A stretch of 64,000 bases of DNA from assembly GCA_951406725.2 (NCBI GenBank), contig OX597834.1:14198001-14262000 (forward strand), given 5' to 3'. The stretch's first letter is position 1. Every line of letters starts with the position of its first letter. The notes under the pieces are model-generated. The model was not told where the DNA came from and made no database searches. It worked only from the letters and a program-made list of their open reading frames with translations. Of the stretch, positions 22,145 to 60,549 are shown piece after piece. The stretch comes from Octopus vulgaris. Lineage: Eukaryota. The translations under genes were made by a program, and so were the position numbers.

Positions 22145-22349
22145 CCATGTTGATTCGCTAATTTCTGCACGCATTTTTTTCTCTCCTTGTTTCTCTCCGT
22201 GTTTCTTTTCTGTGTATCTTTCTGTTGAAGAGCGTAGGCTCGAAACGTAAAAGACTTTTATTTATATTCCTGAGCGCCATACTAATACAATTGTTTGTTT
22301 ATATTCCACCTGCCTTCGTCTTTTGTTTATTTTCATAAATCTTCCCGTT
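22145..22349 (+). mobile_element. ~200-bp repeat family F with a hammerhead-like motif at 22217-22254
   Basis: TCTTT-CTGTTGA-A-GAGC(GTAG)GCTC-GAAA-CG-TA/AAAGA; other copies at 47043, 58626 and 60365. Confidence 0.8.
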
Positions 22350-22420
22350 ATATATATATATATATATATATATATATATATATATATATATATATATATA
22401 TATATATATATATATATATA

Positions 22421-22800
22421 TTCTAGTTCCTGCTCAGACCTGCAGCGACGCTGATGCACCGATGTTTTGCTGCACTGTTATTACTGAGAGCCTCCTCTAA
22501 TATGTGGCAATTGGTGAAGAATGGAGTTTGATATAGCTACCCTCACTTCACCGCTTGCCATGAGGTAGGTTCATCTGGGACTCTCGACAGGAAGAGGTCC
22601 AGCTTTGATTTAAAAAACACTACATGTACTTTGTGCAAGTTCCTCAGAGTCTTTGGGAGAATATTTAAAAGCCGTGAGCCCTTAAAACCCAGGCTGTTAC
22701 AGTAACTGGCATTGAAGCGTGATGGCATTGCTGGGATCTTTGGCACTATGCAGTGTCGTCCCCTTCTGGCATTGGCGTAGCTTTTAAGGCCACAATTTAG
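22421..22800 (-). mobile_element. CR1-group LINE 3' end (ORF2 C-terminus plus 3' UTR)
   Basis: RRGRHCIVPKIP...NSLGFKGSRLLNILPKTLRNL...FKSKLDLFLSRVPDEP, resembling the LFNxLP / FKxxLDxFL / VPDEP pattern. Confidence 0.8.
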
Positions 22801-23337
22801 ATGGATGCATAGATCCATATATAAGCGTTTGCGTGCGCGCAAGTCCTTTATATTAATGCCTATAACAACTATATATATTTTTAACACGCCAATTTACTTC
22901 TTGTACATCGTTAAAACTGCATGATTAAAAACAAGACGAGTTTGTTATGCGTCTGTCTATATTTTTCTTTTAATTCCTTGCGTTGCATCTATTTGTCTTA
23001 TTATAAGGAGACGAAAGTGTTCTTCAAGTTCTTAGAATTAAAAAAAAATCAATATAATTCTTAAATACGATTGTTCTCCTAGACTTAAGTAATCAGAAAT
23101 ATTACACGTAACAACCAAAAACTTCTCAGGTAAAAGAGATTTTACTTAGGCATTTCACTAAGTCGCCAGTGATTTCTACTTCTCAAACTATGTTAGTATC
23201 TCCAATAAAGTTACTTGTTACTGCAAACATCTAGTACGCTTTACCTACCAATGCTGCTGAAGTTTATCTCGATATTGTACCTTTTTTTGGTGCTGCTTCT
23301 AGGTGAGTTCGAATCATGCTGTCATATGTGCAACCCT

Positions 23338-23603
23338 GTGGAGGCGCAATGGCCCAATGGTTAAGGCAGCGCATTCGCGGTCGTAAGAGTGCGGTTTCGA
23401 TTCCCAGACCGGGAGATGTGAGTGTTTATTGAGCGAAAACACCTAAAGCTCCACGAGTCTCCGGCAGGGGGTGGTGGCGATCCCTGCTCGCTTGGCCAGC
23501 GGGGTGGCGTCATTTGAAGGCTAAAACAATGCGAAGCGCATTGTGACCAGCGATGTGTAGCAACATCTGATAGCCTGGTTGGTCACGATGATCACAGTGA
23601 TGT
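23338..23603 (+). mobile_element. tRNA-headed SINE family C with an alternative tail
   Basis: GGAGGCGCAATGGCCCAATGG...GGTTTCGATTCCCAGACC...GAGCGAAAACACCTAAAGCTCCACGAG; 3' part differs from the 30632 copy. Confidence 0.85.
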
Positions 23604-23945
23604 GTAATCTTATTTTGTCACTGGCCATCAGATATTTTGAGCTAGTAATGAACTAATGTTGGAAACATACCAAATATAATTTTGGTGGTACCTTTGCGTA
23701 AGAATTCCAAGACATTTGGCAGTGGTTGTTGCAGGATCAACGCCATGATATGCGTGTGTGCAGTAACAAGTATCATGTATATATATATATATATATATAT
23801 ATATATATATATATATATATATATATATATATATATATATATATATATATATAATCATATCAAAGGTAAATGGAAATTAATTAAAATTTACATTTCCAGT
23901 GGTGTAACGTGTAAAAAATTTAGTCAAAATGACTATATATTAGTT

Positions 23946-24144
23946 ATACGATATAGTGTATATACACGTAAGATATCCACTTATAGGAATTCAACACGCT
24001 AGAAAGAACAGCTAGGTCCTATAAAGAACCTAGTTATAAAGAACCTATAACGAACCTGGTTATAGAACCTAGCTGTTCTTTCTAGCGTGTTGAATTCCTA
24101 TAAGTGGATTCCTTATGTGTTTAGATATACACTCTATCGTATAT
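23946..24144. repeat. Inverted repeat, ~75-bp arms, ~40-bp spacer
   Basis: ATCCACTTATAGGAATTCAACACGCTAGAAAGAACAGCTAGGT and its reverse complement at 24068-24110. Confidence 0.9.
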
Positions 24145-24309
24145 ATATATATATACGTATTGAGGTTATAAGAGATAATGGTGTCATTGAGACACGAAAG
24201 TGTCAGGTAACGCTGAATACGTGGTATAGACAGACCGTAGTTAAGTTCCAGGTTGGGTGATTTTGCGAATAAAGGGTTCAACGTTGGTCATTATGTCAGC
24301 GTGTTTACA

Positions 24310-58625: not shown

Positions 58626-58813
58626 ACCATGATTGATCGTTAGCCACTACGCACATTTTTTTTCTCTCCTTGTTTTCTGTGTCCCTTTCTGTAGAAGAGC
58701 GAGGCTCGAAACGTAAAATACTTTTTCTATTCCTGAGCGTTATACTAATACATATGTTTGTTTTGTACACCACCTGTCTTCGTCTTTTGTTGTTTTTTCG
58801 TAAAATCTCCCTG
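58626..58813 (+). mobile_element. Family F copy with a hammerhead-like motif at 58686-58718
   Basis: TTT-CTGTAGA-A-GAGC(GAG)GCTC-GAAA-CG-TA/AAA. Confidence 0.8.
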
Positions 58814-58834
58814 TATATATATATATACAATAAA

Positions 58835-59290
58835 AGCAATTAAGATTCAAGTCAATTCTAATGAATTCACTTGAATGCGGTACTTAACTTAGATGCACCA
58901 GAAAACTATATGGTGTTAACCATACAGTAATATGGGGTGATTATAAACGAGAAAGAAGCAACAAGAATGGATTAGTTTTTAGTACAATTGTTTCATACAA
59001 AGACAGGCTTTATTAAAAGTTGCAAATATTGCAGCAGATATAAGTGTCCCGTACTCATCAGCTAAAACACATATGAGTTCTTCAAACATCTTAGTGGGTG
59101 AGGCTACATTCATGAAGTATTGGAGATAATTTCATTAAAAGCAGATTCAGATTGTAAACAGACTTCCGAAGTTCTTTAATGATGATGCACAGTCTTATCA
59201 CAGGTTTTAAAAAAGCTTATTAGCTTCACAGAGAAGGTGAATTAATCCGTAGTGTAGGATTCATGAGTGTAGCCTCACCCACTAAGATGT
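58835..59290 (-). mobile_element. HHR-bearing family J element with a 31-bp inverted repeat
   Basis: Homology to the 45705 region; 59086-59116 inverted at 59260-59290. Confidence 0.7.
58977..59067 (-). ncRNA. Type I hammerhead ribozyme, intact core
   Basis: TTTTAG-CTGATGA-GTACGGGACA...TGTCTTTGTAT-GAAA-CAATTG-TA/CTAAAA. Confidence 0.85.
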
Positions 59291-59561
59291 GTATGTGTAT
59301 GTGTGCTTGTGTGTGTTAGTGTGTGTGCCTATGTACGTCCGTGTGCATGATTTAGTGTGTAGCTTCCTTTACTTTGTAGAAAGAGTCTTCTTCCTACAGC
59401 GAAGAAGCTGACTCTTGACAAAGACACACATTTGTATCACTAAGAATTTGATAAAGACAACAAGACATGGTCTAGGTTCAACTTTTGAAAAGTCATGCAT
59501 AGTTTTATTGCTCCACTACATTGAGTTATGGCGTAGACTTAAAACAATAAACATATTCTTA

Positions 59562-59968
59562 TCTACTCTAGGCACAAGGCCCGAAATTTTTGGGAAGAGT
59601 GCCAGTCGTTTAGATCGACCTCAATACGCAACTGGTACTTAATTTATTGACCCCGAAAGGATGAATGGCAAAGTCGACCTCGGCGGAATTTGAGCTCAGA
59701 ATTGAAAGACAAACGAAATACCCATTTCTTTACTACCCACAAGGGGCTAAACACAGAGGGGACAAACAAGGACAGACAAACGGATTAAGTCGATTACATC
59801 GACCCCAGTGCGTAACAGGTACTTATTTAACCGACCCCGAAAGGATGGAAGGCAAAGTCGTCCTCGGCGGAATTTGAACTCAGAACGTAACGGCAGAACG
59901 TAGCGTCAGACGAAATACCGCAAAACATTTCGCCCAACGTGCTAACGTTTCTCCCAGCTCGTCGCCTG
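59562..59968 (-). mobile_element. SINE family B dimer (long-tail copy joined into a short-tail copy)
   Basis: Two central domains; junction GTAAAGAAATGG/GTATTTCG at ~59722. Confidence 0.88.
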
Positions 59969-60364
59969 AACTTATTAAAAGCACTATGAACCTGACCAAT
60001 TTTATGACATAAGATTTTTGCCGTTCTTTTGATGAATGCCGCTGTGAATTTGCCAATTGCGATATGTTGATAGGTAAGATAAAAGGCGGGCAACTGGTAG
60101 AATCGTTACAACGCATGCAAAAGGCTTGGCGGAATTTTTTCCTTCTTCAAATTCAGCTTAGGTGGATTATGACTTTCATCTTTCTGGGGTCGATAAATAA
60201 TTTTCATTCTATTCATATAATTGACCAGCACCCCACCACCAAAATTTAATCTTACAATGTACACGTTTCACTTTAAATCTTATGTATGTATCTATGTATG
60301 TATATATATATATATATATATATATATATATATATATATATATATATATATATATATATATATA

Positions 60365-60549
60365 TAGCCCCTACACGCATTTTTTCTCCTTGTTTCTCTC
60401 CTTGTTTCTTCTCTGTGTATCTTTCTATCGAAGAGCGTAGGCTCGAAACGTAAAAGACTTGTTTTATTTCTATTCCTGAGCGCCATACTAATACATTGTT
60501 TGTTTGTACTCCACCTGCCTTTTGTTTATTTTCGTAAACCTTCCCGTTA
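60365..60549 (+). mobile_element. Family F copy with a hammerhead-like motif at 60420-60457 (additional G5A)
   Basis: TCTTT-CTATCGA-A-GAGC(GTAG)GCTC-GAAA-CG-TA/AAAGA; (AT)n on both sides. Confidence 0.8.

What the first reader, a model, noticed from the sequence alone, without database searches (positions are those of the whole stretch)
22217..60457. Family F hammerhead variant with a shared A6U core change
Seen: all four copies read CT(G/A)TNGA-A-GAGC-loop-GCTC-GAAA-CG-TA closed by (TC)TTT:AAA(GA). Position 7 varies (T, A, A, C) as in real hammerheads, while position 6, canonically A, is T in every copy. Established: A6 is nearly invariant in hammerheads. Inference: either a natural non-canonical core variant that works as a dimer, or a catalytically dead fold retained in a family that still amplified.
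Basis: partly seen in the sequence, partly recalled or inferred. Interest (0 to 1): 0.7.

Follow-up and report, generated by a model that had tools for sequence, protein, structure and literature searches.

The report
Penelope hammerhead with conserved A6U core
The four repeats are cut-off tail ends of a very abundant protein-coding jumping gene whose hammerhead-shaped RNA motif carries U in place of a normally fixed core A while the rest of the motif stayed almost unchanged through many rounds of spreading, so it is likely a slowed self-cutting RNA, though cutting is untested.

Summary
Observation confirmed. The four copies are 5'-truncated ends of a Neptune/Nematis-type Penelope-like retrotransposon (RT plus C-terminal GIY-YIG), each carrying a minimal type I hammerhead. 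Genome-wide, core position 6 is T in 19,094 of 20,015 exact-context matches; A (340) fits decay plus a canonical sister family. In 9 of 15 long loci fetched, a U6 motif flanks the ORF on both sides. Across nine successive U6 subfamilies, 58 of 128 flank columns changed but only 4 of 37 motif columns. The repeated changes fall at N7 and N17 (A/U/C, never G), the positions hammerheads leave free. So a dead hitchhiker is unlikely. A sister lineage independently fixed U4C (8,113 copies). Best reading: an attenuated, dimer- or protein-dependent ribozyme (0.5). Main rival: a non-cleaving structure bound by the element's protein (0.35). Published mutagenesis predicts low activity, and truncated copies show no clear peak at the cut site. 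Eight searches found no natural A6U, but the most relevant paper (Lünse et al., RNA Biol) was not readable. This scan already noted this family twice in this genome and A6U in other, mostly shark-like, genomes. New variant of a known kind.

The parts
22142..22348 (+). 5'-truncated 3' end (pLTR) of the Penelope-like element, young subfamily S1b (N7=U), ending in (TA)n
   Evidence: the top 40 genome matches are 96-100% identical
22217..22254 (+). minimal type I hammerhead motif: U6 at 22225, stem I 5 bp, stem II 4 bp, palindromic ACGU, predicted cut between 22249 and 22250
   Evidence: sequence; consensus in PMC4209133 supplement
47043..47227 (-). 5'-truncated 3' end, subfamily S3 (N7=A)
47126..47163 (-). 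hammerhead motif: U6 at 47155; stem I cut to 3 bp by a copy-specific change
58626..58813 (+). 5'-truncated 3' end, subfamily S3 (N7=A); 5' edge approximate
58684..58720 (+). hammerhead motif: U6 at 58692; 3-nt loop II and 3-bp stem I (decay)
60367..60547 (+). 5'-truncated 3' end, subfamily S2 (N7=C), between two (TA)n runs
60420..60457 (+). hammerhead motif: U6 at 60428 plus a copy-specific G5A

Best explanation
The motif is the terminal-repeat hammerhead of a protein-coding Penelope-like retrotransposon in which core A6 is replaced by U throughout one lineage, and it likely still works as a slowed self-cleaving ribozyme that would need a second copy and probably protein help. Shown: the carrier element, the lineage-wide U6, two motifs 3.9-4.5 kb apart around the ORF, and conservation between subfamilies. 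Inferred: in a transcript running from one terminal repeat to the next, the two palindromic ACGU segments would pair to supply helix III. Slow cutting after position 17 would then trim, and possibly allow circularisation of, the RNA that the element's RT copies into (TA)n targets. U6 would lower the rate, and slow cutting was evidently tolerated, because no A6 revertant lineage displaced U6 through at least eight later subfamilies. The window copies themselves are inert insertion products.
For: Carrier: RVT_1 above cut-off, a GIY-YIG hit below cut-off (E 0.0015), a CX4CxxC linker, and an 826-aa open frame in L444. Nine of 15 long loci have U6 motifs on both sides of the ORF. Selection: 173 copies in 9 subfamilies clustered on flanks only; flank majorities differ by up to 35%; 58 of 128 flank columns vary against 4 of 37 motif columns (p=9e-5; 3 of 37 without the smallest subfamily, p=3e-5). 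No 37-column downstream window has fewer than 11 variable columns. N7 takes all four bases (4 steps) and N17 takes A, U and C (3 steps), as the CUGANGA and H17 rules in PMC7151607 and PMC4209133 allow. C3, U4, G5, G8, A9, G12-A15.1 and U16.1 never change (6.8 changes expected at the flank rate, p=0.001). The CpG positions that decay fastest in dead copies (G16.2 13.7%, first loop II G 17%) are invariant between lineages. The stem I pair 2.4-1.4 is C-G here and G-C in the A6 sister family. A natural A6C variant keeps low but real activity (PMC3088659 section 8; PMC7151607).
Against: No cleavage data exist. Pairwise mutagenesis of a type III hammerhead found all CUGA-region mutants other than the C3-G8 swap to have low activity, with no rescue (PMC9901934 passages). 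A6C left one ribozyme over 10,000-fold slower in Mg2+ than in Mn2+ at 0.3 mM (PMC7151607). Canonical minimal Penelope hammerheads are already weak even as dimers (PMC4209133). Copies starting at the predicted cut are not clearly enriched (7, 4, 4 and 3 across four neighbouring junction classes among 19 loci). With decay-scaled rates the invariance of the 10 core positions alone is only p=0.04. Loop II is also invariant within the lineage, which a sequence-specific protein site would explain equally well. 'Never G at 17' rests on 3 steps. U6 can pair with A15.1 in a rod-like monomer fold. A sister lineage fixed U4C and also spread.
Confidence: 0.5

Rival explanations
1. The motif no longer cuts but is kept as a structured site that the element's RT/endonuclease binds, or as the dimer contact that brings two terminal repeats together during integration. 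Hammerhead shape would be selected, and catalysis would not be.
For: Two independent core changes in sister lineages each spread to thousands of copies (A6U 19,094; U4C 8,113). T>A revertants arise, yet none took over. Loop II is invariant. U6 allows a U4-G16.2, G5-C15.2, U6-A15.1 helix with probability 0.4-0.98 in 7 of 9 subfamilies in short context, against at most 0.23 for the matching G5-C15.2 pair with A6. Craig et al. (PMC8557442 passages) note that the hammerhead's function in endonuclease-bearing elements is unclear and that Naiads proliferate without canonical motifs. There is no clear truncation peak at the cut.
Against: The two repeatedly changing positions are exactly those that catalysis leaves free, and G17 is avoided. 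The rod fold fades in longer context for most subfamilies and is absent in the U4C sister, and its effect on the dimer gap is inconsistent.
Confidence: 0.35
2. A6U killed the ribozyme, and the remains hitchhike neutrally in an element that does not need them.
For: A6 changes are known to be harmful (PMC9901934, PMC7151607). U6 itself cannot be shown to be constrained (0.68 steps expected per site).
Against: The motif is far more conserved than the flanks over a source-lineage tree of 0.9 substitutions per site: 2 changes seen against 19 expected at the 35 positions other than N7 and N17, p=1e-6.
Confidence: 0.07
3. The motif is conserved because it overlaps protein coding, with N7 as a silent third codon position.
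For: In one frame N7 is a four-fold silent site, and U4C in the sister family is also silent (sequence).
Against: The distance from the end of the endonuclease to the motif is 460-1,030 nt with all three remainders mod 3, and the frame stops before the motif in all 24 U6-lineage rows, some of them the same copy fetched twice. Other silent sites (11.1, 16.2, L2.2) do not vary, and N17 changes a stop codon to sense codons.
Confidence: 0.02

Closest known systems
Minimal type I hammerheads (min-HHR) in pLTRs of metazoan Penelope-like elements (Cervera and De la Peña 2014, PMC4209133)
   Same: U-rich 5' flank, an extra base between A9 and 10.1, the G10.1-C11.1 pair, no loop III, palindromic 15.2-16.2, NUH at the cut, short stem I, location in terminal repeats on both sides of an RT-GIY-YIG ORF, and mostly single truncated copies.
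   Different: Position 6 is U, whereas the published consensus is CUGANGAH; the only core variant in the parts read is U3-A8. Stem II is 4 bp rather than 7-8. The motif is uniform across subfamilies, unlike the heterogeneity reported there.
Natural A6C hammerhead of phage Bcep176 (Perreault 2011, PMC3088659; Naghdi 2020, PMC7151607)
   Same: A natural substitution at core position 6 in an otherwise conserved core.
   Different: C rather than U; a single phage locus with measured low, Mn2+-favoured activity, against a eukaryotic retroelement lineage of more than 19,000 copies with no activity data.
Neptune/Nematis endonuclease-positive Penelope-like elements (Craig et al. 2021, PMC8557442)
   Same: RT followed by a CX2-5CxxC linker and C-terminal GIY-YIG, DKG motif, pLTR formed by partial tandems, heavy 5' truncation, insertion in (TA)n.
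   Different: Canonical hammerheads are described there as universal in such clades, and this lineage lacks the canonical core. Neptune versus Nematis was not resolved by a tree.
Non-LTR retrozymes of animals (bioRxiv 10.64898/2026.07.22.740005, first fifth read)
   Same: Type I hammerheads related to Penelope pLTRs. L293 is a 510-nt two-hammerhead mini unit of this family.
   Different: The window copies are dispersed truncated ends of a coding element, not tandem arrays.

Membership tests
Hammerhead ribozyme (type I, minimal) | Core C3 U4 G5 A6 N7 G8 A9 ... G12 A13 A14 | tested here: not met
   Nine of the ten conserved bases match; position 6 is U in 19,094 of 20,015 matches
Hammerhead ribozyme (type I, minimal) | A15.1-U16.1 pair and H17 cleavage site | tested here: met
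   A15.1 and U16.1 invariant; N17 is A, U or C in nine subfamily majorities
Hammerhead ribozyme (type I, minimal) | Stems I and II can pair; G10.1-C11.1; palindromic 15.2-16.2 for a dimer helix III | tested here: met
   Stem I 4-5 bp and stem II 4 bp; the 2.4-1.4 pair is swapped against the sister family
Hammerhead ribozyme (type I, minimal) | Site-specific self-cleavage after position 17 | not testable with these tools
   Only assembled contigs were offered, none on record as RNA; the indirect truncation test was inconclusive
Endonuclease-positive Penelope-like element | ORF with RT and C-terminal GIY-YIG | tested here: met
   RVT_1 E=1e-7, above cut-off; GIY-YIG E=0.0015, below cut-off, in L122 and not reported for L444; GIY-type motifs read directly in the 826-aa frame
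Endonuclease-positive Penelope-like element | pLTR: a partial 3' copy joined upstream of the full unit | tested here: met
   3' tail joined to the 5' UTR in 16 of 30 loci; motifs on both sides of the ORF in 9 of 15
Neptune/Nematis clade | CX2-5CxxC linker upstream of GIY-YIG | tested here: met
   CX4CxxC in P0001; feature taken from PMC8557442
Neptune/Nematis clade | Placement in an RT phylogeny with reference elements | not tested
   No reference proteins were fetched
Non-LTR retrozyme | Tandem non-coding units, each with a hammerhead | tested here: not met
   Window copies are single and dispersed, and the family has coding members; one two-unit mini copy was seen elsewhere

The most novel reading that the evidence does not exclude
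In Penelope-like elements the hammerhead fold has been repeatedly retuned or exapted. Lineages fix core changes (A6U here, U4C in the sister lineage, A6U reported by unchecked notes in shark-like genomes) that turn a free ribozyme into one that cuts only when the element's own protein or a partner copy completes the core, or into a non-cutting docking site. This would be a natural protein-gated hammerhead class that standard CUGANGA searches miss.
Probability: 0.3. Interest if true: 0.75.

Novelty: new variant of a known kind. Interest (0 to 1): 0.5.

Why it matters
Whether Penelope-like elements need their hammerhead to cut is an open question; Craig et al. even suggest that the motifs may be passengers. 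This lineage is a natural experiment. It changed a near-invariant core base, stayed protein-coding and active until recently (the youngest subfamily is 1% diverged), and kept the rest of the motif under selection. A canonical sister and a U4C sister in the same genome give matched controls. A simple cleavage assay would show either that a 'forbidden' core works in its natural dimer context or that the fold has a non-catalytic job. It also means that descriptor searches built on CUGANGA miss tens of thousands of motifs in such genomes.

Tried and rejected
(1) Per-position conservation over genomic copies: uninformative, 4.4% in the motif against 5.4% in flanks. (2) An excess of A6 revertants: not seen. 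T sites in flanks decay to C, A and G as 248:112:50 (A to C+G 0.38); at position 6 the ratio is about 0.45 after setting aside the 23 of the first 100 listed A6 hits that belong to a sister family. The exception is the oldest N7=C layer, where 3 of 12 copies have A6 against 0 of 38 old N7=U copies (p=0.011); this probably marks the origin of U6. (3) 5' truncation at the predicted cut: 7, 4, 4 and 3 across neighbouring junction classes plus 1 unclear among 19 loci, so inconclusive. (4) RNA evidence: no RNA holder was listed; four runs guessed to be RNA were contigs only and cannot show ends or expression. (5) The idea that A6U and U4C convergently stabilise one rod-like off fold: not supported for U4C and inconsistent across subfamilies. 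(6) Coding overlap: rejected. (7) L122 was first read as a joined pLTR-ORF-pLTR and then corrected; its upstream copy is a separate insertion. True joined copies were found later. (9) Possible loop II pseudoknots and a competing downstream GAGC pairing were noticed by eye and not tested. (10) Lünse et al. (PMC5785218) and a recalled review of hammerhead mutant kinetics were not held, so any report of A6U there remains unchecked; supplement file 1 of PMC4209133 could not be searched.

Full report
Observation. The window is AT-rich, microsatellite-laden animal DNA from G000 (2.8 Gb). The host is probably an octopus, from recall and earlier AI notes; this was not tested here. Four copies of a 180-210 nt repeat carry the motif, with C3 at 22222 (+), 58689 (+), 60425 (+) and 47158 (-). 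All four have T at position 6. Copy 22222 is otherwise a full match to the minimal type I consensus of Cervera and De la Peña (PMC4209133: first half of the main text read, supplement file 2 searched). The other three copies carry extra decay. No hammerhead family appeared among the Rfam rows shown.

How general U6 is. With the same stem II context, position 6 is T in 19,094 genome matches, A in 340 and C or G in 581; reversed controls gave 0. To avoid selecting on the core, copies were also picked by 3'-flank patterns: 117 of 126 with a core have U6, and 30 anchors lacked a core, many through 5' truncation. The A6 copies fit ordinary T>A decay plus a sister family. Contigs of four public runs labelled as four organisms (A-D) hold the family. 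None lists another letter at 22225 at the 3% threshold, while 22226 (N7) and 22249 (N17) do vary.

The carrier. [quoted passage not shown] In 16 of 30 loci found with the 5' UTR, the 3' tail is joined directly to it, forming a pLTR. Of 15 such long loci fetched, 9 have a U6 motif on both sides of the ORF, 3.9-4.5 kb apart, and L444 keeps an 826-aa open frame. The motif lies in non-coding sequence. The window copies are thus 5'-truncated insertions of a coding element, ending in microsatellite runs, mostly (TA)n.

Is the motif under selection? Of 215 aligned copies, 19 picked by the A6 pattern and 7 in small clusters were left out. The remaining 189 formed nine U6 subfamilies (173 copies, 5 to 65 each) and two sister subfamilies (16 copies), clustered on flanks only. 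The U6 subfamilies form an age ladder from 10.7% to 1.0% divergence, and their flanks differ by up to 35%. Among them, 58 of 128 flank columns vary but only 4 of 37 motif columns: N7 (four states), N17 (A, U, C), 2.5 (which adds a fifth stem I pair) and 11.3 (only in the five-copy oldest group). Fisher p=9e-5, stable when small groups are dropped. Scaled by each position's own decay rate, 19 changes were expected at the 35 positions other than N7 and N17, and 2 were seen. For the ten core positions alone the same scaling gives p=0.04. Inserted copies decay about equally in motif and flanks. The sister lineage has A6 in 25 of 25 flank-picked copies with a core, so U6 is the derived state. It probably arose in the oldest layer, where 3 of 12 N7=C copies still have A6. 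A large part of the sister lineage has U4C instead (8,113 exact copies).

Mechanism. The architecture has no helix III except through the ACGU palindrome, so activity would need two copies, as proposed for this class; full elements supply two. The free positions are those that catalysis leaves free, which favours a working ribozyme. Against this, pairwise mutagenesis found CUGA-region mutants weak and not rescuable (PMC9901934 passages). Natural A6C is slow and prefers Mn2+ (PMC3088659 passages and section 8; PMC7151607 first half). Truncated copies do not clearly pile up at the cut. U6 can pair with A15.1 in a rod-like monomer in most subfamilies in short context, but not consistently in longer context. 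I put 0.5 on a slowed, dimer- or protein-dependent ribozyme, 0.35 on a selected non-cleaving structure, 0.07 on a neutral relic and 0.02 on coding overlap.

Prior art. Eight full-text searches listed no natural A6U hammerhead. An octopus repeat-annotation paper has no occurrence of 'hammerhead' or 'ribozyme' in its main text (PMC13282606). I saw only the title of Lünse et al. on small Penelope hammerhead variants, in the reference list of PMC6765202 (not held), so it may already contain this variant. Of bioRxiv 10.64898/2026.07.22.740005 I read the first fifth. Earlier notes of this scan report this family twice in the same genome and A6U Penelope motifs in other, mostly shark-like, genomes. 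I could not test the latter, and my own metagenome scan was inconclusive.

Verdict. A real, lineage-wide, selected core variant of the known Penelope minimal hammerhead: a new variant of a known kind, interest 0.5. It fails strict hammerhead membership at A6, and cleavage is unproven; what it works like remains a dimer-type hammerhead.

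Noticed in passing
G000 genome-wide, e.g. L212, L221, L230: The sister Penelope-like family with the same stem II has fixed a different core change, U4C (CCGA), in 8,113 exact copies, alongside a canonical CUGA subfamily.
   Followed up: partly
L293:1010-1829: A 510-nt mini element with no ORF carries the same 5' UTR-to-pLTR junction twice and two U6 motifs 510 nt apart, as copying round a circular template would give.
   Followed up: partly
L282, L286, L292-L294, L296, L297, L299, L301, L304, L306, L307: In 12 of 30 loci a 5' UTR fragment ending near TA-rich motifs is fused to a truncated pLTR at variable points, skipping the whole ORF.
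   Followed up: partly
window 38121-38680: An inverted pair of another repeat family, each arm with a canonical CUGAUGA hammerhead core (38272 on -, 38522 on +), flanked by (TA)n.
   Followed up: partly
window 15605-15660: A canonical CUGAAGA minimal-hammerhead-like motif of a third repeat family.
   Followed up: no
window 21769-22140: A different repeat with 74-nt inverted arms (21866-21939 and 22066-22140) abuts copy 1.
   Followed up: no
L123:5254-7578 (-): A 775-aa RT plus GIY-YIG open frame of another Penelope-like family with 506-nt inverted repeats sits next to a truncated U6 element.
   Followed up: no
window 22226 and equivalents: N7 changed 4 times along the U6 lineage, more than any of 128 flank columns (maximum 3), which may be tuning next to U6.
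   Followed up: partly
window 22277-22285 and equivalents: A downstream GAGCG block is kept in all subfamilies and both sister families and could compete for the 3' strand of stem II; seen by eye.
   Followed up: no
window 41392-42014; 23961-24123: A 36-nt tandem array of 17 units, and a 163-nt fold-back palindrome.
   Followed up: no
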